Of a stretch of 32,000 nt of DNA, positions 4,871 to 28,460 are shown in pieces. Every line of letters begins with the position of its first letter. Within the stretch, counting starts at the first letter, position 1. A program made the position numbers and the translations under genes. The notes below the pieces were generated by a model that saw only the letters and a list, made by a program, of their open reading frames with translations, had not been told where the DNA came from and ran no database searches. Source of the stretch: Candidatus Saccharimonadota bacterium (GTDB lineage: Bacteria > Patescibacteriota > Gracilibacteria > Absconditabacterales > Absconditicoccaceae); NCBI GenBank assembly GCA_965231145.1, contig OZ246420.1, positions 930,001 through 962,000 of the forward strand. The letters are read 5' to 3'.

Positions 4871-5425
4871 TTATCTTGATTCCTTTTCTAGTTTCTGCGC
4901 CAGTCTGTACAGTGTTAAGAACGGTACAAATCTCTGAGCTTTCACCATTGGTTCTTTTCTGTTGATCAATCATTCTGAATACAGCTTCTCCATATGATAC
5001 TCGTAGAATGGATGTTCTTCGCTTTCTACGTTCGTCTGCTCATACTTCTTGCCATACAGCATTCTTGAAAGCACAGTCATATACTCTCCTCTTGTTAATA
5101 TGTCATTTGGTCTGCTTGTATTCATCAGTCCGAGCTGACACGCTTGGATCATATATGCTTTTAGTCCATCTGGATCTTCTCCGCTGAATACGCATTGCTT
5201 ACTTGTATCTGGCAGCTTGCCTAATATGTTCTTCGCAAACTCTCCCATGATCTTTGCAAGCTGCGCTCTCGTGATCTGATCGTAATAACGTGCTTGTAGG
5301 AATGTAGGCATCGTCGTTGACCCAATAGCACGATTGAAACAGTATGATTGTTGCTCTTCTCCCTTCAATGCTCTACACTTTGCTAATGCGAGACGCAGAA
5401 TATCTGAAGTTAAATCAGGCAATCA
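4871..5425 (-). other. C-terminal wall-anchor region of giant protein 1: three SLH-like repeats (approximate bounds)
   Basis: The translation contains ...YYDQITRAQLAKIMGEFAKNILG..., FSGEDPDGLKAYMIQACQLGLMNTSRPNDILTRGEYMTVLSRMLYG and HPFYEYHMEKLYSE-G-LINRKEPMVKAQRFVPF. These fit the S-layer-homology pattern (aromatic/acidic start, GI/GL core, xTRxE/Q helix). The Gly of the third G-L/I core is a TGA (4970-4972). Confidence 0.5.
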
Positions 5426-8400
5426 TGCACTACTACATGTTCTGTCATAGTAGCTCAGCGAGTAATCTCCGTTTGGACAGACATCCTTCGTCAGATACAC
5501 TCATCCGCCTCCTCATGCCGATTGTACCGATGGAGTTGTGGCTAATGGCACTCCAAATATACTAAAGTTTGAGAAGTGCGGTGTATCACATGTCACCGTC
5601 TTATTGACCATATCCACCACACAATTATCTAACTCTGACCAGCTTGTTCCATCATGACTATATATCTTCAACGTGCTTTCATCTACTCAACTCACATCCT
5701 GATCACGATAACTTAATGTCAGCGTCAATCCCGTATCAAAGTTCGTCACACGCTCTACGTCTCCACTATATGCTTGTAAGTCATATAACGCTCCTACTTG
5801 AATAAGCGATGGATTGGGCAATCCAAGCGCTACCATAGCAGCTCCCGTATCCAACTGTTTTCCCTGGAAGATAAGAGTCGGTGCCGAAGCAACCACATCC
5901 GCAGGAATAATAAGTTCTAATATTGTTCCTATATCCGCAACCATAGAGAATATGGCTCATACAGGAACATCTATGATATCTTGTTCTTGAGTTACAATAT
6001 CAGAATTGTTGGGGCACCCTAGAGTAGTAAACGAATAATTAGTTCCTGTATAGCGGCTTCCCAACATATCTGTACCTATAAACCTATACGTATAGGTTGT
6101 ACATGCAAACAAACCAGAGATAGATCAACTATGTGTTGTGACACGAGGAGAAACATCCCCTTCCGCGCTCTGCAAGCCATATCATGTCGATATACTATAC
6201 TGAATTTGCGTAGAAGAAGGTATCGTTGTTTCCCAGTTAAAAAGCATAGATGTCATTCATGTAAGATGACTCATTCATGTAGCATATGCTGCAAGTATAT
6301 TTGGCATGACTGAAACTGAATCACCAGGTCCCTCTCCTTGTGCATTGACTGCTGAGACCGTGAACACATATGACACACCATTTGCCAATCACGTGAAGAT
6401 AATCGGGCTATTTGTTCCGGTCTTTACCAACAATCACGTATGCGATCTTATTGTATAGTAATCTATAAATAATCCTCCGTTATCTAATGGCGGCGCAAAC
6501 GTGAATATAGCCGCGCCACTTGCAGCTTTTGCTGCTATATCAAGAGGAGCTGTTACTGGTGCAGTTGTTGGCGTCGTTATGGTTAACGTCACAGCCCCAC
6601 TTGCCCCTTCTCACTGTATATTAAATGCAGAAATAAAGAACGTATGAGTTGTACCGTTGATAAATCCTGTCACCGTAATAGGAGAAGTTGATGATGTTGC
6701 TACGACCAATCAAGTAATCGATGTTATCCTATATCATAGTATAGCCGATCATCAACTGGTTAATGGTGGATCAAAATCAAACACCGCCTCACCATTTGTA
6801 CCTGCTGCTTCAATATTTTGTGGAACACCTGGAACTGTTACCGGAACGACACTATTTGAAGGAGCACTTAACACTCATGTAGTTACAGAAGTTTGCGCAA
6901 CAACAGTGAATGTATATGTCACACCATTCGTTAAGCCCTCAACAGTAATTGGACTATCTGTTCACGTCGCAATGATATTTCACGGAGACGATCTCACTAT
7001 GTAGTAGAGAATAGGAAATCCTCCATCGTCGGTCGATGCGTTAAATGATATGGTTGCCTGTTCATTTCCTGCCACAGCCGTCACACTCGTAGGTGCATTT
7101 GCTATAGTTGACGGAATAGTAGCATTTGAAGCACTACTTACTTCTCAGGTTCACACGCCATTTCTTGCCACTACGGTAAATGTATATGAAACTCCGTTCG
7201 TCAATCCTGGCACTGTAATCGGACTTCACAATCATGTCGCCGCAACATTTCATGGTGATGATGTCACAATATATTCAATGATGCCTGTTCCACCATCATA
7301 CGTCGCCCCACTAAATGCAATAGTTGCCTCTTGATTTCCTGCTATCGCCGTCACATTTGTCGGCGCATTTGGCAACGAAAGAGCGACGACTTCACTTGCT
7401 ATAAAGCTCTCGGTTCCTGTTCCAATAGCATTTACCGCAGCCACTGAAAATATATAAGGAGTACCGTTTCTCAGTCAGGTAATGGTAATCGGGCTATCGT
7501 CTCACGTTACCATGAAATCTCCAGTATTTGAGCCAACAACATAATACAAAATATTTGATCCTCCACTGTTAGTAGATCAACTAAATGATATGATTGCTTG
7601 TCAACTACTCACTTCTGCCACCACATTTGTTGGTTCACTTGGAACCGTTGCCACAAGCACGCTGTTTGAAGCCGCACTTTGCGCTCAAAATCACACACTA
7701 TTTCTTGCCATGACAGTGAATGTATAGAAGACACCGTTTGTCAATCAATTCATGATGATAGGCGCCCCACCAGATGCCACAATAAAACTACCTGGACTCG
7801 ACGTCACAAGGTATTCGATGATTCCTGTTCCTCCATCACTTACTGGCGGCGCAAACCAGATTGAAGCTGATTCATTACCTCACGTTGCAATGATATTTAT
7901 AGGCACCCCTGGTACTGATACTGGAATGATGCTATTTGAAACACTGCTTGCTGGTCATGTTCCGATCGCATTCACTGCTACCACAGTAAATGTATATCCG
8001 GTACCATTAGTCAATCAAGTAAGGCGTATAAAACTACCTCAACCAGTAAATGAAATATTCCCAGGATTTGATGTTGCTACATAGTACAAGATGTTTGATC
8101 CTCCGCTATTCGTTGAGCCACTGAATCTTACCGTTGCCTGACCATTTCCTCATGTTGCTGTTACATTTGTCGGCGCATTTGGCACCGTTGCAGGAATGAC
8201 GCTATTTGATACGCTACTTGCCGTTCATGTACCAATTGCATTAATAGCTCTTACCGTAAATGTATATGATGTTCCGTTTGTCAATCATGTGATTGTAATT
8301 GGACTTCATGTTCATGTGAAACTTATGTTTCACGGTGACGACGTCGCTATGTAATAAAGAATATCTGAGCCTCATGTATACGTTGAGCCACTGAATGAGA

Positions 8401-11400
8401 TAAGCGCCTGTCAACTACTAGCTGTCGCGAAAACATTTGCCGGCGCATTTGGCACCGTTGCAGGAATGACGCTATTTGATGCGCTACTTACGGTTCATGT
8501 TCACGCAGCATTGAGTGCAACTACAGAGAATGTATATGAGACGCCATTAGTAAGTCATGCGATGATAATTGGACTTCATGTTCATGTGAAACTTATGTTT
8601 CACGGTGACGATGTTGCTATGTAATAAAGAATATCTGAGCCTCATGTATACGTTGGAGCAACGAATGAAACGGTTGCCTGCCCGCTTGAGCCAGTTGCCA
8701 CTAAGCTCGTTGGTTCATTCGGTGTTCAGATTGGCGTAACATTGTTTGAAACATTACTCCACGTTCCTGTTCATGCTCCATTCACAGCTGCTGCCCTAAA
8801 AGAGTATGTCGTGCCGTTAATCAGTCATGTAATCGAGATCGGACTTCATGTTCAAGTCACCACAATACTTCATGGCGATCATGTGAGAATATAATAGAGA
8901 ATAGTTGATCATCATGTATACGTTGGTGCGATGAATGAAATGATTGCTTGTCCACTTGATCAGGTTGCGACTAGACTTGTCGGCGCATTTGCTACGGATA
9001 TTGGCGTCACACTACTTGATGGATTACTTACTGGTCCAGTTCCAATTGCATTGACCGCTGCAACTGTAAACGTATAAGACAAACCATTGATCAGACCTGA
9101 TAAAACTACCGGACTATCACTTCCCGTATATGAAATACCTCACGATGACGACGTAACAACATAATAAAGGATATCAGAACTTCCACTATATGTTGAACCA
9201 CTAAAGGACACCGTTACTTGTCAGCTGCTTGTCGCAGTTGCTACTACGTTCGTTGGTGCATTTGGAACACTCATAGGAGTAACGCTATTTGATCCACTGC
9301 TTGCCGATCCTGTTCGAACGCTATTTCTTGCGGTAACCGTAAAAGTATACGATACACCATTGGTCAATCACGTTACCGTGATTGGACTTCCAGTCCCGGT
9401 AAATGATATGTTTCCCGGATTTGATGTCGCGATATAATAGATAATTCATGTGCCACCATCATCGGCAGATCAACTAAATGAAACTGTTGCCTGACCACTT
9501 GCTGCCACCGCAGTTACATTGGTTGGCGCACTAGGAGGAAGAATTTCACTTGCAATTGGCTCCTCAAATGTGATAGACCAATTGTACAATGGTAATCCTG
9601 TACTATTTGACGCCAAAGAGACGCTCTCATCACTATCGCGGATGTTTCATCATACAGCGGTTGCAAGAGTCGAACTTCAACACGTTCCCAATCCAGCAGC
9701 CGGGCCCGTAGGACAAGACCATGCATAACGAAGCATCTGATGAGTTCCATTTGCAGCTCCACTGAGTTGGATCTGCACCTGAGTATTTCCACTCACCAAT
9801 GAAACCCCACTAATTGTGGTTGTACTACCGCCACTCTGCACAAATTCAAAACCATAGTTCGTACGTTGGGCAACATTTCATGTATCAATATTGAGTGTTC
9901 CTACTGGGATATTATAACTTACCGTAATCACGCTCCCTGACCTCACCACTGACGTAGGCATAAGAGGATTCCACGACTGTCCCTGAAATACTACTTTATT
10001 TATCACCTTTGCAAACATTTCTCCGACATGTTTGGATGACGTGCTTGTCAGACGAACTTTATCTCAAAGGTATGGATACTGATATTTTGGACCGACAAGG
10101 ATGATCTTCCCTGGGTTATTTTTATGTGCACTCAATTGTGCTACTGCTATACTACCACTCCACGTAGAATTTACCTGATTGATAAACATAGGCAATAAAA
10201 CTCCTGTGGTTCACATCAGGGCATTAATATCAAGTTGGTAATCTCTCTGCCACTCAACCAAAAATGCTTCATACCCGGCAGTAACAGATAGCGCATCACT
10301 TTCTCCATGAACAATAGTTACAGCAAGAGGTTTATAAATCCCTCCCGTTGCTTCTACTAAAGATTTTGAAATAGAGGCTTGCGCCATACCTTTTGCATAA
10401 GGAGCCGTTCCTTTCTTCAGTCAAGAATATGATGCATTTGCACCATGGAGTCCTACAACAATAGGACGGGCCAACACTCCTGTATACGCCCTAAGAGAGT
10501 TTGCGATACCTGCTGATGGCGTTTCCGCACCAGATTCTATGAGCAATCAAAGTTGATTTCACGTACCCTGTGGGTTTCCTCAACTAAGAGCGAGATTGTT
10601 ATAGGGCTGAAAAACACTAATCGCTGAGGAATTCAGTCCATAAGAGAGACTCTCTCCATTGGAAAGAATATGATAATATGTTTGGGTGTTTGTTGCTACC
10701 GCACTAGTGATAGATCCGCTTCCTACTCACTTACTATTTATAGCAGAAACCCTGAAATCATACGCTATATTATTAAAAAGTCACGTCACCGATCAGGTAA
10801 GTTCTGTACTTATACTATCTGAAAACACCGTCCAACTTGATCATGTAGAAAATTTATATTCTATCTGATAATCAAAAACCGGATCTATTGTAGAAAGTCA
10901 TGACCACGCCAAATGCACCACTCAACTTCCTACAGATGTTACGTAAAAATTTCTAGGAGCCCATGGTGTTGTTGCAGAAACACCTGGATTTCCTTCATAC
11001 ACCGATTGTATTTGCTGAGGAGTAAGAATTTGATCCCACAACTGCGCATCATCCATAAATCACGACCACATATGAGCTCCGCCGTTATATGTTCCTATAT
11101 ATGCTATCGTACTCGCGGCAGGAAGATTCGGCGCTATCCCACTTGCAACATATGCTCAGTTTTTATAAAGTGTATATTTCCTTGTTGTACCATCAAAAGT
11201 CATTGCAGCATGCACCCATGATCCGAGAGTGAGCGATACAGGATCGGTGGCCCAAGCAGTACCTCAAGCTGCTCCATGCCCTGCAATCAGCGAATTACTC
11301 ACAGAGAAAAAACTAGGATTATTCGCGTTTCCGTTAGTAATGATACTACGTGTAGCAAGAACAGTGCCTGTTGGAATAAACACCCATGCTGCCTTACTAA

Positions 11401-14400
11401 ATCCAGTAAGATTCATACTTGCTCACACACTTACAAAATTAGTCGTTCCATTGAAACGAGCTACATTACCACGAGTAGCATCATTGACTATAACCGTACC
11501 ACTATTTATACCATTATTTCGATTTGCAGAAGAGTCCAAGTAATTACCTTCGAAACGCAGAAAGAATTGAGGATGTGGCACATATACATCTATTGGAGTT
11601 ACATTTATTACACTACTTGCACTACCGGTTCCGACAGTATTGACTGCTGAAACCCTGAAATCATACACTATGTCATTGAACAATCATGTAACTACCACTC
11701 ATGTGTTTGTACTTATACCATCTGACAACACAGTCCATGTTGCTCATGTATTGAACTTATATTCAATTTGGTAATCTGTCACCGGCGAGGCAGCAACAGC
11801 CCCTGACCACGTAATTCTTACCTGCCCACTGACAGCTGCCACTCCTGTAAGGTTCGTTGGAGCAGAAGGTGCAGGAGGCGTTGCTCCATTTTCTCCTGAA
11901 TAAATAGCCGTTATCTGCGCAGGAGTAAGAGCGACATTCCACATTGCAGCATCATCAATATATCATGACCAAAAATTGAGGATTCAGAGGTAACTTCCGA
12001 TATACGTTCCTGTACTTGTTATAGGTCCATGAGGTGCTGTTCCACTTGCTGCATATACACCATTTTTATAGAGATTATATTTTCTGGTTGGATAATCAAA
12101 AGTGATAGCAACATGCACCCATGCTCCACTCGTAAATGTTGCAGAATCATTGACATACGTATTATTAGTATGTCCTCCAGCCAATGAATTATTTACCCAA
12201 AAGAAATTTGCATTAGCATTATTAATAATATTACGAGATGTAAGAGTTGTTCCTGTTGCGGCAAATACCCACGCCGCTTTCGTAAAATTTCCTCCTGACG
12301 TTAAAGGAGCTGGAACCATAACAAAATTGGTTGTTCCGTTGAAACGAGCGACCAATCAACGACCTGGATCATTTATCAATACCGTACCACCATTTACACC
12401 ATCATTTCCATTTGCAGAAGAGTCCATATAATTACCTTCAAAACGCAGGAAGAAGGCAGGTTCTGGAATTGGCGATGGCGCAAGAGTGATAGTACTACTT
12501 GCTGTTCCCGTTGCCACTGAATTAACTGCAGAGACTCTGAAATCATATGAAAGATTATTTATCAGTCACGTTATTGTTACTCATGTGTTTGTACTTATAC
12601 CATCTGACAACACAGTCCATGTTGCTCATGTATTGAACTTATATTCAATTTGGTAATCTGTCACTACAGGATCAGCAGTTACTCCTGACCAACTAAGAAC
12701 CGCCTGCCCACTTCCTCAAATGGCTCCTGTAAAATCTGTTGGAGCATTAGGAGGAGCTATATTTAATCAAAGATTACCTTCATATACTGCCTGCATCTGC
12801 CCCGATGATAACACACCTCTCCACTGCTGCATGTCATCCATATATCCCAGCCATGTACTTACACCAGGGTACCTTCATAGATTGGTACCTACCCCTCCAT
12901 CTGGCGAAGTACCAGCTACACCACTCGCTACATACGCACCATTTTTATACAGTGTATATTTTCTTGTTGCTGCATCAAACGTCTCTGCAACGTGCACCCG
13001 CTGTGCAACAGGAAAAGTAGTAGGGTCGCCAGCAGGTGAAGGTTGACCAGCATGTCCGGCGGTGAGATTTACTGTTCCATTTAGCCACAAAAACGTAGAT
13101 GCATCACCAAAAATCGCTCTAAAATAAAATGTCGGAGACAAAGATCAGAAACCCGTTGTGTATACCCAACCAGCCCTTGAAAACGATCATGTGCCTATTC
13201 CTGTACCAACACTAACAAACGATGCTGACTGAGCATTCTGCCCACCATCAAAAGAGCCGACTTGTCCACGAATCGGTTCTGTGACAACAGTCACTCCTCC
13301 ACTAACAGTACCGTGATTATTATTTGTTGTAGAGTCATTAAAGTTTCAGTTGAATCTCAGAAGAAACTGTGGCTCCGGGACTCATGCTTCAGCTGAAATA
13401 CCTGTACTTGCAAACCCGGCTCCGCTGGCATTGATTGCTGAAACTCTAAAATCGTACGACATGGGACTTATAAGCCCAGTGTTTATGACGACGCCCGTAG
13501 CTGTACTAACGCCATCATTATAAACCTGCCATGATGTTGACGAACCGGTAGTAAATTTATATTCAATCATATAGTCTGTTACGGCAGGCGTCGCTGAAAC
13601 AGGAGCCCAATTTACACGAACTCTTCCATTGGTGATAGAAACCGCTGACACATTTGTTGGTGCTGCAATAGCCCAATTTTGCGCCATCACTTCTTGTATT
13701 TCAGCTTCTGTCAAAACAGCATTCCACATCTGTACATCGTCTATCCACCCACTCCATGAAGAAGCATATGTGATAGCGCCACCTGAAACAGTATTAGTTG
13801 CAATAGCACCAACAACCTGAGCCAAACTAAAGGGATTTATTATACCGGTAGCACTGCTCACCAAGACACCACTCTGATATAGTTTATAATCCTTTGTGAC
13901 CGCATCAAACGTAACCGCCACATGCATCCATTGTCATGTAGGGAAAGCTCATGTTGAAAATACAGGATATATATTACTATTTGGTGGCGGGATATCACGA
14001 GGTCCAGCCTTGAGAGTATAAATACCGGCAGGTCCAGCGAAATTAGAATTGGCAACCGCAAACAAGTCGCTGCTATTTGCTGCATAATAAGAACCTGCAG
14101 CTAAAATGGAATAATTAGGAGCCGTAGGATTCGCTATCCCCAATTTCACCCAGGCCGCTTTTGTATAACTTCAAGAAAGCATGTTGGTAACTCTTACGAA
14201 CGCATCAGCATAGCCTGTAAGCCACAAAACCTTTCCACGAACAGAATCATTGAAAATGAGAGCTCCTGTTCCGGCTGTAGTGGTTTTATTATTTCCACCA
14301 CGATCAGTAAAATCCCCGTTGAAAGGCAGAAAATACGACGGTGCAGGAATAGCAGCATATACTTTTCCTGGTGCAATAGTTATAATTAACGCGAAAAATA

Positions 14401-14470
14401 CCTGGAAACAAAAAATCCCCAATGTTGTTCGTCTTGAAAACATAGATTTCGACTTACGGTTTAGATTCAT
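4871..14470 (-). CDS. Giant secreted cell-surface protein 1 (3,199 aa): signal peptide, 4x(LamG_3-Fn3), SGNH/SASA-like esterase, 12 tandem Fn3, stalk, 3 SLH-like repeats
   Basis: Ten track fragments lie in a single frame: 14171-14470, 13949-14149, 13382-13927, 12875-13141, 11984-12355, 11744-11944, 11423-11683, 7250-7444, 5687-5944 and 4970-5422. All offsets from 4871 are multiples of 3, and 14470-4871+1 = 9600. I hand-scanned every gap codon by codon and found only TGA, no in-frame TAA/TAG. Start is ATG 14468-14470 and stop is TAA 4871-4873. The N-terminus MNLNRKSKSMFSRRTTLGIFCFQVFFALIITIAPGKVYA/AIPAP is a Sec-type signal peptide. Domain evidence is in the sub-features below. Confidence 0.85.
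6305..9545 (-). repeat. Coding tandem array of 12 fibronectin type III domains, period about 270 bp (about 90 aa)
   Basis: Repeat starts fall near 9540, 9270, 9000, 8730, 8460, 8190, 7900, 7640, 7370, 7100, 6830 and 6560. Each unit reads like (V)PNAPTNVxAxxxSGQAxVSFxxPxxxGGSxIxYYxVTSSPGNISxTGTGSPITxTGLTNGxxYTFTVxAxNxxGTGxxS. A 13th, divergent purple-acid-phosphatase-type Fn3 follows at about 6010-6300 (WETT..IQYS..YG..THSGSISGL..TTYTYRF..FTT). Confidence 0.85.
9550..10690 (-). other. SGNH / sialate-O-acetylesterase (SASA, DUF303)-like carbohydrate esterase domain plus C-terminal beta-sandwich, embedded in giant protein 1 (approximate bounds)
   Basis: The translation reads YYHILSNGESLSYG (GDSL/GQSN-type nucleophile block), IVVGLHGANASYS, AVTIVHGESDA (QGESD-type block), LSAHKNNPGKIILVGP, DKVRLTSTSSKHVGEMFAKVI, then ...GGNIRDSDESVSLASNSTGLPLYNWSITFE. 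I recognise these motifs by eye only. No equivalent segment exists in giant protein 2. Confidence 0.45.
10700..14360 (-). repeat. Four LamG_3 (concanavalin-A-like lectin) domains alternating with four Fn3 domains, module period about 880-900 bp
   Basis: Each LamG reads FxGxxxFVxVxxxLxxxFTKAAWV...G/W-VHVAxTFDxxTxKYxLYKNGVxVASG...G-YIDDxxxWNxxLTxxQIxAxY. Each Fn3 reads APTNxxxxxxxGxVxxxWSxxxxxPVTDYQIEYKFxT..W.....STxT...ITGL....YDFRVSAVN. Segments 11697-11782 and 12579-12664 are an identical 86-nt stretch. Confidence 0.8.
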
Positions 14471-14617: not shown

Positions 14618-17600
14618 TTACCTACTTTCTTTCTCTAGTTTCTGTGCCAGTCTGTACAGAGTGAGGAATGGCACAAACCTTTGCGCTTTCACCATTGGTT
14701 CCTTTCTGTTGATCAATCATTCTGAATACAGCTTCTCCATATGATACTCATAGAATGGATGTTCTTCACTTTCCACATTCGTCTGCTCGTACGTTTTACC
14801 ATACAGCATTCTTGAAAGCACAGTCATATACTCTCCTCTTGTTAATATATCATTTGGTCTTGTCATATTCATCAGTCCTAACTGACATGCCTGGATCATA
14901 TATGCTGCTAGTCCGTCCGGATCTTCTCCTGTAAACGTACATTGCTTACTCTTATCTGGCAGCTTGCCCATAATATTTTTTGCAAACTCTCCCATGATCT
15001 TCGCAAGCTGCGCTCTCGTGATCTGATCGTAGTAACGTGCCTGCATGAATGTAGGCATCGTCGTTGACCCAATAGCACGATTGAAGCAGTATGATTGATG
15101 CTCTTCTCCATTTTGTGTTGTACATTTGTTCAACGCGAGGCGAAGTATACCATCTTCAAGATTCGGAAGACCTATGCTACTACATGTTCCATCATAATAA
15201 CTCAGTGAGTAATCTCCGTTTGGACACACATCCTTCGTCAGATACACTCATCCTCCTCCTCATGCAGATTGTACCGATGGAGTTGTGGCTAATGGCACTC
15301 CAAAAATCGTGAAGTTTGAAAAGTGCGTTGTGTCACATGTTACCGTCTTCGCTATCGTATCTACTGAACAATTATCCAGCTCTGACCAGCTTGTTCCATT
15401 GTGACTATAGATCTTCAACGTACTTTCATCTACTCCATCCACATCCTGATCGCGATAACTTAACGTCATCGTCAATCATGTATCAAAGTTCGTCACACGT
15501 ACTGTATCTCCACTATATGCTTGCAAGTCATACAATGCTCCTACTTGAATAAGCGATGGATTAGGCTTTCACAATTCATTTATTGCCGCATCTGCATCAA
15601 GTTGCTTTCCTTGGAAAACAACGAGTGGAATAGAACTCAGTACATCAGCAGAGATAATCATATCAAGCGTTGTTCCTATATCTGCTGTCATACTAAACAA
15701 ACCTCCTACCGGGACATCTATAATTTTTTGCTCCTGATTGACAATATTTGAGTTGTTTGCACAGCCTAATGTCGTAAAAGTTTGATTTGCTCATGTGTAG
15801 CGATTCCCGAACAGATCGGAGCCGACAAATCTATAGTTATAAGTTGTACAAGCAAATAAGTTCGCAATAAACCCACTATGAGATGTGACGCGAGTTGAAA
15901 CATCTCTCTCTATACTCTGAAGTCAATAGCCTGTTAATATACTATACTGTATCTGAGTCGACGCAGGGACTGTCGTAACCCAATTGAAGATCATATTCGT
16001 ATTTCACGTCATATTGGCCATTCAACTTGCGTACGCCGCTAGAATATTAGGCATAGCCTGTACTGATCCGCCTGGCCCTTCTCCCTGAGCATTCACTGCT
16101 GAGATAAAGAAGGTATAGAGCTCTCCATTGGTAATTCATGTAAGAGTTAAAGAGGTGGTTGCTCCTGTCTTAATAAGCATTCCTGTTATAGATCTTATTC
16201 TATAATAGTCAATAAGCAATCATCCATTATCTAATGGTGCTGCGAACGTAAAGACAACACCTCCACTTCCTACTCTCGCGACTATATCCAAAGGCTCTGA
16301 ACCTGGCGCCGTTGTTGGTGTGGTAATAGTCAACGTTACCGCGCCACTCGCGCCTTCTCACTGTGCATTTACTGCTGACACAAAGAATGTATGGGTTGTA
16401 CCATTGATAAATCATGTTACTGTCATTGGACTTGTTGATGATGAGGCGACAATCAATCATGTCATCGATCTGATTCTATATGACAATATCTCTGATCATC
16501 CACTCGTCAACGGCGCATCAAACTCAAATATCGCTTCTCCATTGGTCCCGGCTGCTTCAATGTTCTGTGGCACTCATGGCACCGTCACCGGCGTCACACT
16601 ATTTGATGGTGCACTTGAAACACCAGTTCACAATGCTGTTCTTGCCGTTACCACAAAGGCATACGACACTCAATTAGTAAGACCATCAATTAAAATAGGA
16701 CTTGATAGACCGGTAAATGCTATATCTCCCGACGTAGACGTAACTATATAATATAATATTGGCGAACCACCATCATCTGTTGAGCCAACGAATGAAACCA
16801 CGGCAGATTCATTTCAGGTAGCAGCCATAACACTTGTTGGAGCGTTTGGTATGGTAAATGGCGTCACACTATTTGAGCCAGTACTCAATGCGCCTGTTCA
16901 TGCTCAATTGACTGCGTAAACAGTGAACGTATACGACAATCCATTAGTCAATCAGGTGAGGATTATTGGGCTTCCCGTTCACGTAAATGATATATTTCCT
17001 GGAGACGAAGTAACAACATAGTAAAGTATATCTGAACCTCATGTATAGGTTGGCGCGACAAACGAGACTATTGCCTCCTGATTTCAGCCTACTGCAGAAA
17101 TACCCGTTGGCGCATTTGGTGTACTTATCGGCGTCACACTATTTGAGCCTGTACTCAATGTCCCTGTTCACGCTCCATTGATTGCGGCGATCCTAAAAAC
17201 ATAGGTTACACCATTGGTCAATCACGATACCGTGATGGGACTTCCAGTCCCGGTAAATATAATATTTCCTGTATTTGCCGTAAGCCTGTAATAGAGAATA
17301 TCTGATCAACCACTATACGTTGAGCCACTAAACGACACAACTGCTTGTCAGCTACTTACGACTGCAACAATATTTGTCGGCGCATTTGGCAATCCTGCCG
17401 GCACTATAGCATTTGACGGCCCACCAATTGAACCAAATCACACCGCATTTCTTGCCACGACAGTAAATGTATACGATACTCCATTTGTCAGACCGCTCAT
17501 GATAATAGAGGTTCCCGAACCAGCTTGCATAAAACCTCATGGCGACGACGCAGCTATATATTCTATAATACCCGTTCCCCCATTATTTGCAGGAGGATCA

Positions 17601-20600
17601 AAAGAAATTATTGCATAACCACTTCAAGGCGCAGCCGTAATATTTTGCGTGACATGTGGTACAGAGACGGGAACAACATTGTTTGAAGCTGCACTTCGCG
17701 CACCTGTTCATGCTCCATTGACCGCTGCAACACTGAAAGTATATCCACTACCATTTGTGAGTCAGTTTACGGTAATTGGACTATCAAATCATGTAAAGAT
17801 AATACTTCCTGGAGAACCAGTGAGCACATAGTAAAGTATGTCTGAACCTCATGTATAAGTTGGCGCAACAAATGAGACAAGAGCCTGCCCACTACTTACT
17901 GTCACCGCTATACTCGTCGGCGCATTTGGAGCTCAAACAGGAACCACGCTATTGGAAACACTACTTCGTTCTCATGTTCATGCGCCATTTACCGCCACTA
18001 TTCTAAATGTATATGTCGTTCCATTGGTCAATCATGTCACCGTTATCGGACTTCCATTTCACGTTAGCACTATTCCTCATGGCGCTCATGTCAGAACATA
18101 GTATGAAATATTTGAGCCTCACGTATACGTTGGTGCAGCAAACGAAATGATTGCTTGTCAGCTACTTCACGTCCCCAACAAACTTGTCGGTGCATTTGGT
18201 GTACTTATTGGTGTCACACTATTTGAGCCGCTACTTCGTTCTCATGTTCATGCGCCGTTTACTGCCGCTACTCTAAATGTATATGTCACTCCATTCGTCA
18301 GTCATGTAATTGTCATCGGATTACCATTTCAGGTCACCAGAATATTTCCTGGTGATCACGAAAACACATAATACATGATTGATGATCATCCATTATATAC
18401 TGGCGCAGTGAATGACAATATTGCTTGCCCACTCGATCCTGTTGCTACCACACTTGTTGGCGCATTTGCGATACCCATTGGAACAACGCTATTTGATCAA
18501 GTACTCGGCGTTCCGACACCGATACCATTGACTGCTGTTACCGTGAAAACATACGAAATCCCGTTAGTCAGTCATGTTATCGTGATAGGACTTCATGTTC
18601 ATGTAAATGAAATATCACCTGTGGATGACGTTACTACATAGTAGAGAATTGTCGAATTTCCGCTGTCCGTAGAACCACTAAACGAAACTATTGCTTGTCC
18701 ACTACTCGCCGTCGCCACGATATTAGTAGGAGCATTTGGAACAGTTGGGATAATCACTCATAATGCAGCTCCTTCATATAAAGCCTGGATTTGCAATGGC
18801 GTTAACACACTATCCCACATCTCTGCGTCATCTATGTATCAGCTCCAGTTAGAAGTATTGTATGCACCAACTGTCGTTCACGTACTACTCAATGGCAACT
18901 GACTAGCTATATTACCCGTCACAAACACTCCATTTTTATAAATTCTATGCATACGAGTAGCCGAGTCAAAAGTCGATGCTATATGCACCCACTGTCACAG
19001 CGGAAATGTAGCAGGATCTGTTGCGGATATTGTGATAAATCAACCCACAAAATTTCCAACAACTAATTTTCAGACAGTGGTTGCAAGATAGTCGGACAAA
19101 CTTCCGCCAAAACCGGCATTGGATATAATACCACGCAAACTAGTCATATTTGTACCTACAGGAGCATAGACCCATGCAGCCTTCGTAAAATTTGATGGTA
19201 AAGGAACAGGAACAGCTACATAACTTGTCGTTCCATTGAAACGTCACACCTGCCCACGAACTTCGTCTGTCACTATCGTCGCTCAATTGTTGATACCATG
19301 CTTATTATGACTTGTTGAATCTTGATAGTCTCACTCAAAACGCAACAGAAATAGTGGTTCAGGAACACCTATTGGATTAGTCATTCACGTAACACTGCTG
19401 GCTGCACCTGTACCTATAATATTTACGGCTGACACCCTAAAATCATAAGATAAATAGTTTGTCAGTCCCGTAATCGACACAGACAATCATGTGCTTATAC
19501 CATCAGAGAGTGTCGTCCATGTCGATCATGTGCTTATTTTATATTCTATCTGGTAATCCGTCGCTGATGGAATTGCTGCTGCTCCTGACCATGATAATAT
19601 TACCAATCAACTAGTCGCCGACGTTGTTGTCAAATTTAAAGGAGCGCTGGGGATCCCGTTTACTTGAACACCGACATTTCCTTGATATAAAGCCTGGATT
19701 TGCGATGGTGTTAACACACTATCCCACATCTCTGCGTCATCTATGTATCAGCTCCAGTTAGAACTTGCACCGTACGCACCAACTATCGTTCACGTACTAC
19801 TCAATGGCAACTGACTAGCTATATTACCCGTCACAAACACTCCATTTTTATAAATTCTATGCATACGAGTAGCCGAATCAAAGGTTGATGCTATATGCAC
19901 CCACTGTCACAGCGGAAATGTAGCAGGATCCGCTGCGGATATTCTATTTGCTCAACCTGCAGTAAAATTTCCGGCAGTTAGTTTTCAAACAAGAACGGAA
20001 AGATAGTCAGATAACATTACATTGGATATAATACCATGGAAACTACTCACATTTGTACCTACCGGAGCATAGACCCATGCAGCCTTCGTAAAATTTGATG
20101 GTAGCGGAGCAGCAACACCTACATAGCTTGTCGTTCCATTGAAACGCCCCACTTGTCCACGGTCTCCGTCTGCCACTATCGTCGCTCAGTTGTTGGTAGT
20201 AGCCTTTCATATTACATCAGAGTAGTCTCACTCAAAACGCAACAGAAAGCTCGGCATAGGGACAAAAGTAGTTCTTCAGGTAGCTACACTACTTACGCTA
20301 CCCGTCCCACTTGCATTAATCGCAGACACCCTAAAATCATATAAAAGGTCATTTATCAATCATGTGATAAATCATGTTGTATTTGCAGAAACACCATCAG
20401 AGTGTGTTGTCCATATTGATCATGTACTTATTTTATATTCTAAAGAATAGTCTGTGACTGGGAGTGTTGCAGAAACACCTGACCATGACAACAATACTAC
20501 TCCAGAAAACTGAGAAAGTGCAGTCACATTGGTTGGCGCACTTGGAAGAGAGACATCGACTCATAAATTTCCTTCATAAACCGCCAATATCTGAGTTTCA

Positions 20601-22243
20601 TTGAGAACACTATTCCACGAGGCAACATTATCCATATATCCTCACCGTGAAAAATTACCGGCATAGTATCCGATTCTCATACCGGTATTTGCAGCGGGAA
20701 GTCATGGAGATACTCAGCTTGCAACATACACACCATTTTTATAGAGAGTATATTTCTGAGAAACAGGATCAAAAGTCTCAGCAACATGTACCCACTCTCC
20801 TGTTACAAAGTTATCAGGATCTGAGGCATATGTTACTCCTACACCAGCTGGCACGTGTCATACCGATAATTTTCATGCATTCACATACATAAAATTTGAT
20901 GACGATCATCCATACGCATCGTGTCAAAATATGAAACGGAAATTGGGAGAGATACCTGTAGCAACCATAACCCAACCAGCCTTCGTAAAACCTGTTGTTC
21001 ATAAGGGAGCTGGAACAGTAATTGATACATCTGCTCCTGTAAAGTATGCAACTAGTCAACGAGTTCCATCTGTTACGATACTCACACCAGAGCTTATACC
21101 ATGAAAACCGCGAGATGAAGAATCGTTATAATTTCCTTCAAAAGGCAAGATAAATTGTGGCTCGGGAACCGCAGCCCATGCTGCTGTACCCGAAACGATA
21201 CTACTTGCAGAACTAGTTCCGCTTGCGTTGATTGCAGATACTCTAAAATCATATGTCATACCCGTAATAAGAGACGTCACACTTCATGTATATCTTGTGT
21301 TTACTCCATCTGAAAAAACATTCCAGCCTCATCCTGTAGTAAATTTATATTCAATTTGATAATCTGTCACACTTGGCGCTACCGAAACAGGCGTCCAACG
21401 AAGATTTACTCTTCCATTTGTAGTCGTGGTTACTCTTAAACCTAGAGGAGCACTTGGCAAGGAAGGCGTAATACCATCTCCATTATTTTGATTCATCACC
21501 TCGACTATCTGCAATGCAGTCAGTGCACCAGACCAGAGTTGTACATCATCCATTTGTCAGCTCCAGTTATGGGCGATGTTATTTTCATCAGCAGCAAAAG
21601 CTCCAATTACCTGTTTTGTACTGCTTGGGGCTGTCGTTGTTCCCGTAGATATACCAACCAAGACACCACTCTGGTAGAGCGAGTATTGTTTTGTCGCAGC
21701 ATCATAAGTTACCGCCACATGCGTCCATTGTCATGTGGTGAAGGTACCAGTACTTTGAACACCATTTGCTGTAGTATTATTGAGTGGTCATGCTTTCAAC
21801 GTCCAGTTAGAAACTCCTCAAAGCAGATTAGTCGCGACCCAAAAAAAGTCACTATTTCATCATAAAGTGGTTCCATTGGACAAAATACCATAGTTTTGAG
21901 TATAGTTAGCAACTCCTAATTTAACCCATGCAGATTTTGTATAACTTGGCGGAAGAGAGTTGGTCACACTTATATAAGAGATATTTGTCCCTCCAATAAG
22001 ATTTAATACTTTTCCACGTACCGGATCTGTCACAATAGACGCACCCGTACCCACCACAACAGGCTTATCATTACCCGAGTGATCGATAAAATCACCATTA
22101 AACGGAAAAAGATACATCGGTGTAGGCACCGCTGCATACACTTTTGCAGGCATAATAGTTATACCCAATGCAAAAAATATATAAAAACAAAAAATAGCCA
22201 ATATAGTCCAGCCCGAAAATGTGCGTGGGGGCTTATGATTCAT
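14618..22243 (-). CDS. Giant secreted cell-surface protein 2 (2,541 aa), tandem paralog of protein 1 without the esterase domain
   Basis: Track fragments 21860-22264, 21329-21553, 21056-21280, 19985-20176, 15260-15475 and 14717-15247 lie in one frame (offsets from 14618 are multiples of 3). I hand-scanned 15421-19990, 20161-21060, 21241-21330 and 21541-21860 and found only TGA, no in-frame TAA/TAG. ATG 22241-22243 (MNHKPPRTFSGWTILAIFCFYIFFALGITIMPAKVYA/AVPTP, aligning with the protein 1 signal peptide) is preferred over the TTG at 22264. Stop is TAA 14618-14620. Confidence 0.85.
16050..18765 (-). repeat. Coding tandem array of about 10 Fn3 domains, period about 270 bp
   Basis: The + strand landmark (c)ttgt(c/t)gg(c/t)gcatttgg recurs near 16840, 17110, 17380, 17920, 18190, 18460 and 18730. 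Minus-frame translation gives the same PNAPTN...SGQA..SF...YY..TSS.G.IS.TGTGSPIT.TGLTNG..Y.F.V.A.N..G.G units as in gene 1. Confidence 0.8.
18766..22130 (-). repeat. Four LamG_3 domains with three interleaved Fn3 domains (module period about 900-910 bp)
   Basis: Motifs match gene 1: FTKAAWVYAPVG, QWVHIASTFDSATRMHRIYKNGVFV, G-YIDDAEMWDSVLTP.QIQALY, TDYQIEYKISTG..W, YDFRVSAVN. Modules at about 18781-19330 and about 19691-20240 are near-identical at the nucleotide level. Confidence 0.8.
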
Positions 22244-22405: not shown

Positions 22406-22738
22406 TTATGCATTCATATCATCACCATGTGAGTGACCATGATCATCAAATCTTCTTTCACCAAATGGCTTTCTTTCTCTTTCTTCGGCCATAGAAACGC
22501 TGATAAGTCTTTCTGAAGGAGCAATAGTCTTTTCATTTGACTCAGCAATTGCTTTCTGCGCATCTTCTTCAGTGACATATTCTACGAAACCGAAGCCTCT
22601 CTTTCTCCCGAACTTATCCAAAGGAAGTTTAACTGAGGCAACCTCACCAAATTGGGAAAAATATTGATGTACTTGTTCTTCGTTAAGATTCCAGTCGAGG
22701 TTTCTTACGAACAGTTTTTTTGTCTCAAGTTGTGTCAT
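22406..22738 (-). CDS. RRM-type (RNP-1/RNP-2) RNA-binding protein, 110 aa
   Basis: RNP-2 is KLFVRNL and RNP-1 is RGFGFVEY, at canonical spacing. The C-terminal tail is acidic and His-rich. No in-frame TGA. Stop is TAA 22406-22408. Confidence 0.85.
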   Translation of the reverse strand: MTQLETKKLFVRNLDWNLNEEQVHQYFSQFGEVASVKLPLDKFGRKRGFGFVEYVTEEDAQKAIAESNEKTIAPSERLISVSMAEERERKPFGERRFDDHGHSHGDDMNA

Positions 22739-23085: not shown

Positions 23086-23658
23086 TTATACCAACTTTGG
23101 CGTCATACGGTGGAGCCAATAGTTATACCCTAACGATAGCGCCAAAATGCGTCCAACGGGCGTCGGATAAGCATGTTCCATCGCAAATACGAACACCATG
23201 AGTTCTTGCTCATGTGTACTGTTCTCGTACTTTTTGAGAAATGACTCATCCTTATCAACTGTATTTTTGAAAAGCGCCGCATCTTCGATGCCTGTAAGGA
23301 TTATTTTACGGCGACCGATATTTGACTTTTCCTCCTCTACCTTCTGGGCATAATTCTGCCAGGCGATGATAGATGCTTTCATGTATGAAGTATTTCTAAG
23401 CACTCTTACCCCTACGAAAAAGGCTAAATACAAAATGTATCCAACCAAGGCAGTAGCGCCAATAGCTGCGCTATATACCGCCAAGGGGCCATAAGTAGAG
23501 ATAAGAGGACTACTTATGAGCGCTGCCGCCAAAGATAAGCAGAATGAGAACATCGGCAAACTCCACATAAAGAGAGCTGACTTAAGACGACGTTCTACCG
23601 CTTTCCATGAGAATACATCATCTGCTATTAATTGTGTGCTTTGATTCATTGTTTTCAT
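23086..23658 (-). CDS. Hypothetical membrane protein, 190 aa
   Basis: Uninterrupted ORF with ATG 23656-23658 and TAA 23086-23088. Two hydrophobic helices (LPMFSFCLSLAAALISSPLI and AAIGATALVGYILYLAFFVGV) are followed by a soluble C-terminal half. No family recognised. Confidence 0.65.
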   Translation of the reverse strand: MKTMNQSTQLIADDVFSWKAVERRLKSALFMWSLPMFSFCLSLAAALISSPLISTYGPLAVYSAAIGATALVGYILYLAFFVGVRVLRNTSYMKASIIAWQNYAQKVEEEKSNIGRRKIILTGIEDAALFKNTVDKDESFLKKYENSTHEQELMVFVFAMEHAYPTPVGRILALSLGYNYWLHRMTPKLV

Positions 23659-27959: not shown

Positions 27960-28460
27960 ATGTACGGAAAAGATCATCTTATCAAAGCTATCGAAAACGA
28001 ATTTAACATCCTCAAGCATCTTGGTAACAAAGTAGAAGAACAGTATCTCGGGCATAAGTTTACCGAGAAGCAAAGAACTATTCATGAGCTTATGGCTTAC
28101 CTTGCATTCTCTATTGAAAAGCAGGTGCAGATTATTGTTATCGGACACTGGGAGCCAAGCATCTTTGATAATATGGATGCGCTGACAAAGACATTTGACT
28201 ACAGAAAATGGGATGATCTTCTCGATACAGAAAACGAGCATATTGCAAAAATGATTCGTAGTCTCGACGACGAAGCCATGCAAAAAGAGATCTCAGTCTT
28301 CGGCAAGACAGGACCAAGAAGCATGTTCCTCGTAGATTATCTTCTGACGTTCTTTGGAGCATATAAGATGCAGCTTTTCCTTCAGCTTAAGCACGCAGGA
28401 AGATCTGAGCTTGGTATGTATAACCTCTGGGCAGGCATGGATGCGCCTCAAACAAACTAA
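27960..28460 (+). CDS. Hypothetical protein, 166 aa (possibly a DinB-like helical bundle)
   Basis: Uninterrupted ORF with ATG 27960 and TAA 28458-28460. It is predicted helical with scattered His residues (ILKHLG, HELMAYL, IGHWEP). The family assignment is only a guess. Confidence 0.6.
   Translation: MYGKDHLIKAIENEFNILKHLGNKVEEQYLGHKFTEKQRTIHELMAYLAFSIEKQVQIIVIGHWEPSIFDNMDALTKTFDYRKWDDLLDTENEHIAKMIRSLDDEAMQKEISVFGKTGPRSMFLVDYLLTFFGAYKMQLFLQLKHAGRSELGMYNLWAGMDAPQTN

What the first reader, a model, noticed from the sequence alone, without database searches (positions are those of the whole stretch)
9550..10690. An SGNH/sialate-O-acetylesterase-like enzyme domain is inserted in only one of the two giant adhesins
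Between the last LamG-Fn3 module and the Fn3 array, gene 1 carries about 380 codons with no counterpart in gene 2. In gene 2, LamG-4 runs straight into the Fn3 array near 18766-18790. The insert has esterase-like blocks: NGESLSYG (nucleophile Ser), HGESDA, SKHVGEMFAKV, and a tail GGNIRDSD...GLPLYNW that I associate with SASA/DUF303-type carbohydrate esterases. A glycan de-O-acetylase displayed on a lectin-rich fibre suggests enzymatic remodelling of a host envelope glycan during attachment. Candidate substrates are O-acetylated peptidoglycan, capsule or sialic-acid-like sugars. This would be analogous to receptor-destroying esterases of viruses and phage tailspikes.
Basis: partly seen in the sequence, partly recalled or inferred. 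Interest (0 to 1): 0.7.

Follow-up and report, generated by a model that had tools for sequence, protein, structure and literature searches.

The report
Catalytically disabled esterase-fold module in adhesin
One of two tandem giant surface proteins of a bacterium that reads TGA as glycine carries a sugar-acetylesterase-fold domain, but two key catalytic residues are replaced in this copy, so it more likely binds a glycan than cleaves it.

Summary
The genes lie on the minus strand and can only be read with genetic code 25 (TGA = Gly). Gene 1 (14470..4871, 3199 aa) has 485 codons that gene 2 lacks. These are one extra Fn3 plus a 380-aa domain (10687..9548).

The domain belongs to a large, unnamed family with SASA/CE20-like features: 3832 clusters at E<=1e-30. 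A family profile matches the cyanophage Pan3 tailspike (PDB 9vyh, E 4.5e-25). An AlphaFold model of a 57%-identical homolog (pLDDT 95) matches 9vyh, the CE20 esterase XAC1771, mammalian sialic acid esterase and NanS. The same order, LamG-Fn3-domain-Fn3, occurs in surface proteins of other Patescibacteria.

The enzymatic reading fails for this copy. Of 254 distinct family domains, 251 carry Gln-Ser...His at the catalytic positions. The window copy carries Glu-Ser...Arg. The general-base His is CGT (10054-10052) and the oxyanion-hole Gln is GAG (10654-10652). It keeps 36 of the 39 most conserved columns and shows no faster divergence than its relatives. An independent assembly contig is 100% identical across this region.

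Best reading: a pseudo-esterase kept as a glycan-binding module. This is a new variant of a known kind, of moderate interest.

The parts
4871..14470 (-). Gene 1: giant surface protein, 3199 aa under code 25. Order of parts: signal peptide, 4 x (LamG - Fn3), SASA-like domain, 12 x 90-aa Fn3 array, C-terminal domains with a weak SLH-like tail.
   Evidence: Open frame with TGA as the only in-frame 'stop'. Translation. Pfam finds Laminin_G_3 x4 and fn3 x5 in the first 1734 aa. Repeat spacing is 90 aa. SLH hit is weak, E 0.008.
14618..22243 (-). Gene 2: paralogous giant surface protein, 2541 aa, lacking Fn3-4 and the SASA-like domain.
   Evidence: BLASTP and MAFFT of gene 1 against gene 2. Junction at 18769..18740.
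10691..10978 (-). Fn3-4 (gene 1 residues 1165-1260). It is part of the 485-codon segment absent from gene 2.
   Evidence: MAFFT gap covering residues 1161-1645. Pfam fn3 stretches.
9548..10687 (-). SASA/CE20-like esterase-fold domain (gene 1 residues 1262-1641). Sub-parts, mapped from the P0001 model: alpha/beta/alpha SGNH-type part about 10687..9986, beta-sandwich about 9961..9722, C-terminal extension 9721..9548.
   Evidence: Homologs at E 5.6e-121. Profile versus PDB 9vyh at 4.5e-25. AF2 model of the 57%-identical P0001 with pLDDT 95. Foldseek hits to 9vyh, 7kmm, 8f9o, 1zmb, 2apj, 3pt5.
10649..10657 (-). Block I, G-E-S (residues 1272-1274). Ser1274 (AGT) is kept. The oxyanion-hole Gln is replaced by Glu1273 (GAG; Gln would be CAG).
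   Evidence: Codons. The column is Gln in 113/117 homologs. Q-S-H occurs in 251/254 domains. Role of the Gln is described in PMC9487903.
10295..10309 (-). Block III, H-G-E-S-D (residues 1388-1392), conserved.
   Evidence: H127, G128, E129 and D131 are nearly invariant.
10052..10063 (-). Block V, D-K-V-R (residues 1470-1473). The catalytic His is replaced by Arg1473 (CGT at 10054-10052; His would be CAT).
   Evidence: Codon. His in 60/60 proteins, 73/73 genomic copies and 117/117 non-identical domains. The Logan contig is identical here.
9629..9652 (-). Family-specific C-terminal motif G-G-N-I-R-D-S-D. Both Gly residues are encoded by TGA.
   Evidence: G347, N348, R350, D351 and D353 are nearly invariant. 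TGA codons at 9652 and 9649. Column 347 is Gly in 116/117 homologs.

Best explanation
Gene 1 encodes a secreted fibrous surface protein of a code-25 Patescibacterium (Gracilibacteria or Absconditabacteria, lineages thought to live attached to other cells). It may be anchored to the cell wall. Four LamG(lectin-like)-Fn3 modules are followed by a domain from a large, uncharacterised SASA/CE20-like family of Ser-His carbohydrate O-acetylesterases. The family has an SGNH alpha/beta/alpha core, a beta-sandwich and a conserved GN.RD.D tail. The same family forms the distal part of the cyanophage Pan3 tailspike.

In this copy two catalytic residues have been replaced. The general-base His of block V is Arg, and the oxyanion-hole Gln next to the nucleophile is Glu. 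The rest of the conserved core is intact.

The most likely function is therefore not deacetylation but non-catalytic recognition of the family's glycan ligand on a partner or prey cell surface. It would act as one more lectin module, placed between the distal LamG modules and the Fn3 stalk.

Shown: the domain's presence, family, fold (by proxy model), residue replacements, module order, conservation pattern and reproducibility. Inferred: loss of activity, glycan binding, and the nature and location of the ligand.
For: Family and fold:
- 60 homologs were returned, down to E 5.6e-121.
- 32 of 61 aligned sequences pass Pfam SASA. The matches cover the profile's C-terminal half, including block V.
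- The family profile hits the PDB 9vyh tailspike at 4.5e-25, with GQS, HGE and D..H aligned.
- The AF2 model of P0001 has pLDDT 95. Foldseek matches it to 9vyh (7e-21), XAC1771/CE20 (3e-12), SIAE (5e-11), 1zmb, 2apj and NanS, and to viral tailspikes including those of the Vi phages.

Catalytic loss:
- The block V His is present in 60/60 proteins, 73/73 genomic copies and 117/117 non-identical domains. Only the window has Arg.
- Q-S-H is found in 251 of 254 distinct domains.
- The Gln adjacent to the Ser forms the SASA oxyanion hole, and substituting these residues abrogates activity (PMC9487903).
- In CE20 enzymes the block V His deprotonates the block I Ser (PMC12313940).

Retained constraint:
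- 36 of the 39 columns that are at least 95% conserved are kept.
- Mean identity to distant members is 38.4%, against 37-40% for intact close relatives.
- TGA-Gly use and GC content match the rest of the gene.
- The 3199-codon frame is intact.

Not an artefact: Logan contig ERR4405439_398645, seen in 2 samples, is 100% identical over window 11726..8626.

Context: LamG-Fn3-domain-Fn3 proteins with intact Q-S-H exist in Saccharibacteria, Paceibacteria and other Patescibacteria.

Coupling: the only other His-to-Arg member, P0201 from a different subclade, also has Gln-to-Glu. Chance co-occurrence is 3e-5 if the two changes were independent.

Precedent: the active site of a related SGNH esterase, CtCE2, mediates non-catalytic glycan binding (PMC2661963).
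Against: - No activity or binding assay exists, and no family member has been characterised biochemically.
- The Ser nucleophile, the block V Asp and block III are all kept, so residual or altered chemistry cannot be excluded.
- I could not model this exact sequence because the structure tool refuses code-25 translations. The geometry of Ser, Glu and Arg is therefore unknown, and the catalytic role of the His rests on motif position, invariance and homology, not on measured distances.
- No ortholog from a sister strain could be retrieved. It is unknown how old the substitutions are or whether they are maintained by selection.
- The comparison P0201 sits on a 3.3x-coverage contig with likely frameshifts.
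Confidence: 0.55

Rival explanations
1. One reading: the domain is an active glycan de-O-acetylase displayed on the fibre. It remodels or destroys an O-acetylated receptor on the partner cell, using a non-canonical catalytic arrangement.
For: Ser1274, Asp1470 and the HGESD block are retained. The domain shows no accelerated divergence. The family is used in a phage tailspike. SGNH and CE20 enzymes tolerate variation at the acid position, for example a water-mediated triad or a backbone carbonyl (PMC12313940).
Against: The variation documented in that literature concerns the Asp, not the His. Here the His itself is Arg. In addition, the oxyanion-hole Gln is replaced by a negatively charged Glu, and substitution of these SASA residues abrogates activity (PMC9487903). 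251 of 254 family domains keep Q-S-H. The sequence has no Pfam SASA or SGNH hit.
Confidence: 0.2
2. The domain is a recently inactivated relic with no ligand function of its own. It is carried along as a spacer in the fibre, and the adhesin works through its LamG modules only.
For: Only this lineage and P0201 show the loss. P0201 lies on a contig with apparent frameshifts. No orthologs are available to show that the state persists.
Against: 36 of 39 highly conserved columns are intact, including the family-specific GN.RD.D tail. There is no rate acceleration. The frame is intact. The same two substitutions recur in a separate subclade, which suggests a specific change and not random decay.
Confidence: 0.15
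3. The two substitutions are sequencing or assembly errors, or minor population variants, and the real gene encodes a normal Q-S-H esterase.
For: Each change is a single nucleotide (CAT to CGT, CAG to GAG). The window comes from a metagenome-type assembly, and at least two strains are present in the related runs.
Against: An independently assembled Logan contig, seen in two samples, is 100% identical over 3101 nt that include both codons. Two errors both landing on catalytic positions of a 380-codon domain is very improbable.
Confidence: 0.05

Closest known systems
Cyanopodophage Pan3 tailspike, residues about 309-737 (PDB 9vyh)
   Same: It contains a homologous two-part domain: an SGNH-type core plus a beta-sandwich. 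The family profile matches it at E 4.5e-25 with GQSLS, HGE, D..VH and RG.IRD aligned. Foldseek gives E 7e-21 and TM 0.76 to the proxy model. Both are displayed on a fibre or spike that contacts another cell's surface.
   Different: The tailspike keeps Gln-Ser...His. It is a virion protein, not a cellular LamG/Fn3 surface protein. Identity is only about 18%. Its own activity is not documented in the papers I could search.
CE20 carbohydrate acetylesterases: XacXaeA/XAC1771 (7kmm), Fl8CE20_II and PpCE20_II (9h4u, 9ega), mammalian sialic acid esterase SIAE (8f9o)
   Same: SGNH fold with a GQS(N) block I and a block V His. Foldseek E values are 3e-12 to 3e-7. These enzymes de-O-acetylate glycans (PMC8245568; PMC12313940).
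   Different: Identity is about 13-16%. CE20 enzymes with the X448 ancillary domain have it inserted inside the SGNH domain, whereas here the beta-sandwich follows the core. The window copy lacks the His and the Gln.
SASA / CE6 family (Pfam PF03629): E. coli NanS (3pt5), At4g34215 (2apj), CAC0529 (1zmb)
   Same: The Gln next to the catalytic Ser and an H(Q)GE-type block III are the SASA hallmarks (PMC9487903). Both are family features here, as GQS and HGE. 32 of 61 aligned sequences pass Pfam SASA.
   Different: Pfam matches are marginal (25-30 bits against a cut-off of 24.8) and cover only the C-terminal half of the profile. The window sequence gives no match at all. The family adds a beta-sandwich and a GN.RD.D tail that Pfam SASA does not contain.
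LamG-Fn3-(SASA-like)-Fn3 surface proteins of other Patescibacteria (loci L002 Saccharibacteria, L003, L008 Paceibacteria; L019 and L027 larger)
   Same: The module order is the same, with 52-59% domain identity, an N-terminal signal peptide and a C-terminal wall-binding region.
   Different: They use the standard code, are shorter (1150-2637 aa), end in PG-binding-type repeats or clear SLH domains, and all keep Q-S-H. None has been characterised.
SGNH esterase sites used for binding: CtCE2 (PMC2661963)
   Same: An esterase-fold active site serves as a carbohydrate-binding site within a multi-domain surface or secreted protein.
   Different: CtCE2 keeps its Ser-His dyad and remains active. Here the His is lost. 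Binding by the window domain has not been tested.

Membership tests
SASA / SGNH carbohydrate esterases (Pfam PF03629, CAZy CE6/CE20) | Significant match of the sequence itself to the Pfam SASA or another SGNH-clan HMM | tested here: not met
   hmmscan of the 405-aa segment gives 0 families at E<=10. NCBIfam gives nothing relevant and PDB phmmer gives nothing. The link is only transitive: 32 of 61 aligned sequences hit PF03629, best E 3e-7.
SASA / SGNH carbohydrate esterases (Pfam PF03629, CAZy CE6/CE20) | SGNH alpha/beta/alpha fold | tested here: met
   Tested by proxy. The AF2 model of P0001 (57% identical, ungapped across the motifs) has pLDDT 95 and pTM 0.94. Foldseek probability is 1.00 to 7kmm, 8f9o, 1zmb, 2apj and 3pt5. 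The window sequence itself could not be submitted.
SASA / SGNH carbohydrate esterases (Pfam PF03629, CAZy CE6/CE20) | Block I nucleophile Ser at the start of helix 1 | tested here: met
   Ser1274 (AGT, 10651-10649) aligns with the family Ser. In the model, strand 8-16 is followed by a helix from residue 18, with the Ser at 18.
SASA / SGNH carbohydrate esterases (Pfam PF03629, CAZy CE6/CE20) | Gln adjacent to the Ser, forming the SASA-type oxyanion hole | tested here: not met
   Glu1273 (GAG). The column is Gln in 113/117 homologs. Role of the Gln is described in PMC9487903.
SASA / SGNH carbohydrate esterases (Pfam PF03629, CAZy CE6/CE20) | Block III H(Q)GE motif | tested here: met
   H1388-G-E-S-D1392. 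H127, G128 and E129 are nearly invariant in the family.
SASA / SGNH carbohydrate esterases (Pfam PF03629, CAZy CE6/CE20) | Block V catalytic His (D-x-x-H) | tested here: not met
   The motif reads D1470-K-V-R1473 (CGT). The column is His in 117/117 non-identical homologs and in 73/73 genomic copies.
SASA / SGNH carbohydrate esterases (Pfam PF03629, CAZy CE6/CE20) | O-acetylesterase activity | not testable with these tools
   This needs a biochemical assay.
Phage tailspike receptor-modifying esterase domains (Pan3 tailspike 9vyh; Vi-phage tailspikes) | Homologous esterase-fold domain | tested here: met
   Profile E 4.5e-25 to 9vyh_m. Foldseek 7e-21 to 9vyh. BFVD top hits have TM 0.79-0.85, and ViI and Vi06 proteins are also listed.
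Phage tailspike receptor-modifying esterase domains (Pan3 tailspike 9vyh; Vi-phage tailspikes) | Virion context: N-terminal particle-binding domain and phage neighbourhood | tested here: not met
   The host protein is a LamG/Fn3 cell-surface protein. Neighbouring genes are cellular: AsnRS, an RRM protein and an HhH-GPD glycosylase. An exact 33-nt search of the viral contig collection gave 0 matches.
Patescibacterial LamG-Fn3-(SASA-like)-Fn3 surface proteins (uncharacterised architecture seen in L002, L003, L008) | Signal peptide, LamG-Fn3 module(s), SASA-like domain, Fn3, C-terminal wall-binding region | tested here: met
   Architectures were read from the ORFs. The C-terminal SLH-like hit is only weak, E 0.008.
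Pseudoenzyme (catalytically dead fold member retained for binding) | Loss of essential catalytic residues with the rest of the conserved core retained | tested here: met
   Two catalytic columns are changed while 36 of 39 highly conserved columns are kept. There is no rate acceleration.
Pseudoenzyme (catalytically dead fold member retained for binding) | Demonstrated ligand binding without turnover | not testable with these tools
   This needs glycan-array or cell-wall pull-down experiments.

The most novel reading that the evidence does not exclude
A coupled Gln-to-Glu and His-to-Arg switch, found twice in separate subclades, turns members of a very large, unnamed family of surface-displayed glycan esterases into lectin-like modules. 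That family is shared by Patescibacteria, DPANN-labelled MAGs, myxobacteria, Bacteroidota proteins with a T9SS sorting domain and cyanophage tailspikes. The window would then hold the first pseudo-esterase adhesin module described in a code-25 candidate-phyla bacterium, and it would point to O-acetylated envelope glycans as the recognition target of these cells.
Probability: 0.35. Interest if true: 0.6.

Novelty: new variant of a known kind. Interest (0 to 1): 0.45.

Why it matters
How candidate-phyla bacteria recognise and hold on to their host cells is largely unknown, and their giant surface proteins are the main suspects (PMC8080830). This locus shows that a tailspike-type glycan-esterase domain is a recurrent building block of such proteins. 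It also provides a natural pair of paralogs to compare, one with the module and one without. Because the module here is a natural active-site variant (Glu/Arg in place of Gln/His), it is a direct test case for whether these organisms use the fold to cut or to grip a glycan. The family has thousands of clusters, no dedicated Pfam model in the copy searched and one solved structure, so it deserves biochemical characterisation in its own right.

Tried and rejected
- Table-11 ORF listing shows no long ORF between 5.4 and 22 kb, and plus-strand translations are full of stops. This was resolved by using the minus strand and code 25.
- Code 4 (TGA = Trp) was rejected. TGA aligns with Gly in the repeats and at invariant Gly columns.
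- Direct Pfam, NCBIfam and PDB sequence searches of the insert gave nothing useful.
I used the closest homolog, P0001, instead. No model coordinates are returned, so Ser-His distances could not be measured.
- Recent horizontal import of the domain from a code-11 donor was rejected. TGA-Gly usage (23%) and GC content match the rest of the gene.
- A phage origin of the locus was rejected, because the neighbours are cellular and there is no match in the viral contig collection.
- The search for orthologs or sister strains, to date the substitutions, failed. The metagenome scan's best hit is 53% identical. The genome scan's best hit is 59%. Exact look-ups of code-11 fragments returned only contigs identical to the window, or nothing. 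An NCBI 1.107-Mb contig from a close relative exists, but the gene 1 region could not be reached.
- A paper search for 9VYH returned nothing. A run-accession prefix search (ERR44054) returned one paper, which cites a different run, so nothing relevant was found and the sample environment stays unknown.
- No tRNA gene in the window could corroborate the code.
Full report
**1. What is at the coordinates**

Standard-code ORF calling finds nothing longer than 223 aa in the window, and the plus strand of 9550-10690 is closed in all three frames. In that frame the only in-frame 'stops' between 22279 and 14620, and between 14476 and 4873, are more than 200 TGA codons.

TGA lines up with Gly in the Fn3 repeats, for example TxLTNG against SGLTNG. 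Within the insert it falls on columns that are Gly in 102/117 and 116/117 standard-code homologs, and never Trp. The window therefore uses genetic code 25, the code of Gracilibacteria and Absconditabacteria.

Two tandem genes result:
- Gene 1: 14470..4871, 3199 aa.
- Gene 2: 22243..14618, 2541 aa.

Other genes in the window are ordinary cellular genes: AsnRS, an RRM protein, an HhH-GPD glycosylase and others.

**2. The insertion**

A global alignment of the two proteins leaves gene 1 residues 1161-1645 without a partner. This segment is one extra Fn3 (1165-1260; window 10978..10691) plus a 380-aa domain (1262-1641; window 10687..9548). The gene 2 junction is at 18769..18740.

The domain has no significant similarity to gene 2 and occurs once in the window. 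Its TGA-Gly usage is 10 of 44 Gly codons, and its GC content matches the rest of the gene. It is therefore a long-resident part of the gene, not a fresh import from a standard-code donor.

The order LamG-Fn3-domain-Fn3 recurs in Saccharibacteria (L002), an unclassified Patescibacterium (L003) and Paceibacteria (L008). Loss of the 'Fn3 + domain' unit from gene 2 is thus at least as likely as gain in gene 1. This point is an inference.

**3. What the domain is**

The sequence itself has no Pfam, NCBIfam or PDB sequence hit. It does have strong homologs, down to E 5.6e-121.
- The closest homologs (49-57% identity) are proteins of about 500-580 aa, several with a T9SS sorting domain or an Fn3.
- The 36-43% tier often carries a marginal Pfam SASA match. 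That match covers the C-terminal half of the SASA profile up to just after the D-x-x-H motif.

A profile of the family finds one solved structure, the cyanopodophage Pan3 tailspike 9vyh (E 4.5e-25), with GQSLS, HGE, D..VH and RG.IRD aligned.

An AlphaFold2 model of the closest homolog, P0001 (57% identical; pLDDT 95, pTM 0.94), has three parts: an alpha/beta/alpha core, a beta-sandwich and a C-terminal extension. Foldseek matches it to:
- 9vyh (7e-21);
- the CE20 founder XAC1771 (3e-12);
- mammalian sialic acid esterase (5e-11);
- CE6/SASA structures 1zmb and 2apj, CE20 enzymes 9h4u and 9ega, and NanS 3pt5.

Among viral models it matches three unnamed proteins at TM 0.79-0.85, plus proteins of Salmonella phages ViI and Vi06.

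A full HMM scan of 1.84 billion cluster representatives finds 6554 members at E<=1e-3 and 3832 at E<=1e-30. Of the 144 newly returned sequences among the 150 best hits, 57 are at least 1000 aa long.

Genomic hits come from many Patescibacteria, Myxococcota and Bacteroidota, and also from a Micavibrio MAG and two contigs of a Woesearchaeota-labelled MAG.

**4. Why this copy is probably not an enzyme**

The family has the SASA signature:
- block I G-Q-S;
- block III H-G-E-x-D;
- block V D-x-x-H, immediately before the last core helix.

In SASA enzymes the Gln next to the Ser forms the oxyanion hole. It is held in place by block III, and substituting these residues abrogates activity (PMC9487903). 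In CE20 enzymes the block V His deprotonates the block I Ser (PMC12313940).

The window copy reads G-E-S and D-K-V-R. Glu1273 is GAG at 10654-10652 and Arg1473 is CGT at 10054-10052. Each is one nucleotide away from the consensus residue. The local alignments are ungapped and unambiguous:
- window GPKYQYPYLGDKVRLTSTSSKHVGEMFAKV against L002 GPKYQYEYHTDHVHLTNTNSRHMGEMFAKV;
- window YYHILSNGESLSYG against L002 YFHVLSGGQSLSIG.

The His column is His in 60/60 proteins, 73/73 genomic copies and 117/117 non-identical domains. Over 254 distinct domains, 251 are Q-S-H. The window is E-S-R, P0201 is E-D-R and P0175 is A-S-H.

It is not the catalytic His.

**5. Why the domain is still likely functional**

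- Of the 39 columns that are at least 95% conserved, the window keeps 36. The exceptions are the two catalytic positions and one Pro in the beta-sandwich.
- Its mean identity to the distant half of the family is 38.4%, inside the 37-40% range of its intact close relatives. There is no sign of relaxed constraint.
- The substitutions are not a one-off assembly error. A Logan contig from run ERR4405439, recorded in two samples, is 100% identical to window 11726..8626.
- The only other His-to-Arg member, P0201, also has Gln-to-Glu. It is 42% identical to the window domain but 55-57% identical to Q-S-H members, so it belongs to a different subclade. If the two changes were independent, the chance that both Arg cases fall on the two Glu cases is 3e-5.
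- This suggests a coupled change, possibly a Glu-Arg salt bridge filling the former oxyanion hole. That is speculation. P0201 also lies on a 3.3x-coverage contig with likely frameshifts, which weakens the comparison.

**6. Mechanism proposed**

Shown: gene 1 has an N-terminal signal-like segment, four LamG-Fn3 modules, the SASA-like domain, twelve 90-aa Fn3 repeats and a C-terminal region with a weak SLH-like match.

Inferred: the protein is anchored by its C-terminus to the cell's own wall and projects the LamG modules and the SASA-like domain outward. The intact family enzymes remove O-acetyl groups from envelope glycans of other cells. That role would fit their occurrence in a tailspike, in myxobacteria, in Bacteroidota proteins with a T9SS sorting domain and in Patescibacteria. 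In this copy the pocket has been converted from catalysis to binding, which adds a further lectin specificity to the fibre.

The use of an SGNH esterase active site for non-catalytic glycan binding has a precedent in CtCE2 (PMC2661963). Giant surface proteins are proposed host-attachment devices in the code-25 predator Vampirococcus (PMC8080830).

The ligand is unknown. Possibilities are O-acetylated peptidoglycan, capsule or EPS, O-antigen, or nonulosonic acids.

**7. Rivals**

- An active esterase with a non-canonical base (0.2). The kept Ser, Asp and block III favour it. The lost His and the Glu in the oxyanion hole count against it.
- An inert relic or spacer (0.15). It is disfavoured by the conservation pattern.
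- Sequence error or minor allele (0.05). It is disfavoured by the independent contig.

**8. Comparison and novelty**

The domain works like, and is homologous to, SASA/CE20-type glycan acetylesterases and a phage tailspike module. As a family member it passes the fold, Ser and block III tests. It fails the direct HMM test, the oxyanion-Gln test and the catalytic-His test.

The esterase-on-a-fibre idea is already known from phages and, as shown here, is common in Patescibacterial surface proteins. What is new is the natural Glu/Arg active-site variant in a code-25 giant adhesin, and the size of this family, which has no dedicated Pfam model in the copy searched. I rate it a new variant of a known kind, with interest 0.45.

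Noticed in passing
window 1-32000 (whole window): The window is readable only with genetic code 25 (TGA = Gly). Table-11 ORF calling splits both giant genes into fragments below 200 aa, and public assemblies of the same DNA (Logan) carry them as dozens of tiny code-11 'genes'. No tRNA gene is present in the window.
   Followed up: yes
window 4871-14470 versus 14618-22243: The two paralogs diverge unevenly. The C-terminal 1375 aa are about 70% identical, but the N-terminal LamG-Fn3 region is only about 42% identical. This suggests faster evolution of the distal modules or gene conversion in the stalk and anchor. Gene 1 also has two extra 90-aa Fn3 repeats (residues 1734-1824 and 2118-2207).
   Followed up: partly
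L081 1684-3225 (protein P0201; ENA ERZ2470813 NODE_24501): This is the only other family member with Arg at the catalytic His. It also has Glu for the oxyanion Gln, plus Asp for the nucleophile Ser. It sits in a different subclade (42% identical to the window domain, 55-57% to intact members). The contig has 3.3x coverage and shows likely frameshifts around the gene.
   Followed up: partly
loci L002-L072 (genome-contig scan): The family is concentrated in lineages that attack or attach to other cells: many Patescibacteria, many Myxococcota, a Micavibrio MAG, and two contigs of a Woesearchaeota-labelled (DPANN) MAG (L043, L060). It also occurs in Bacteroidota proteins with T9SS sorting domains. 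The pattern hints at a bacterial-envelope glycan substrate, but it was not tested statistically.
   Followed up: no
L022 124-1230 and 1482-2615: A Myxococcales contig carries two tandem copies of the domain. Both have intact Q-S-H.
   Followed up: no
window 4871-5500 (gene 1 C-terminus) and the equivalent region of gene 2: The last ~200 aa contain ITRAQ/LTRGE-type motifs and give a weak, sub-threshold SLH match (E 0.008, 16.5 bits against a cut-off of 20.8). Relatives end in clear SLH (L027) or PG-binding-type repeats (L002, L003, L008). This region is the likely wall anchor, but that is not established.
   Followed up: partly
window ~20074 (inside gene 2); Logan contigs ERR4405440_238384 and ERR4405439_94963: Both public contigs end at the same point inside the Fn3 array of gene 2, so the repeats break short-read assemblies. 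The two runs carry slightly different strains (187-aa versus 190-aa product at 23086-23658, and a 367-aa versus 370-aa AsnRS fragment). An NCBI contig of 1,107,293 bp from a close relative carries proteins identical to window 27960-28460 and 22406-22738.
   Followed up: partly
window 6296-9535 (gene 1) and the gene 2 array: TGA encodes 40% of Gly codons in the Fn3 array but only 18% in the LamG region, and 6 of 9 in Fn3-4. Use of the reassigned codon is therefore uneven along one gene.
   Followed up: no
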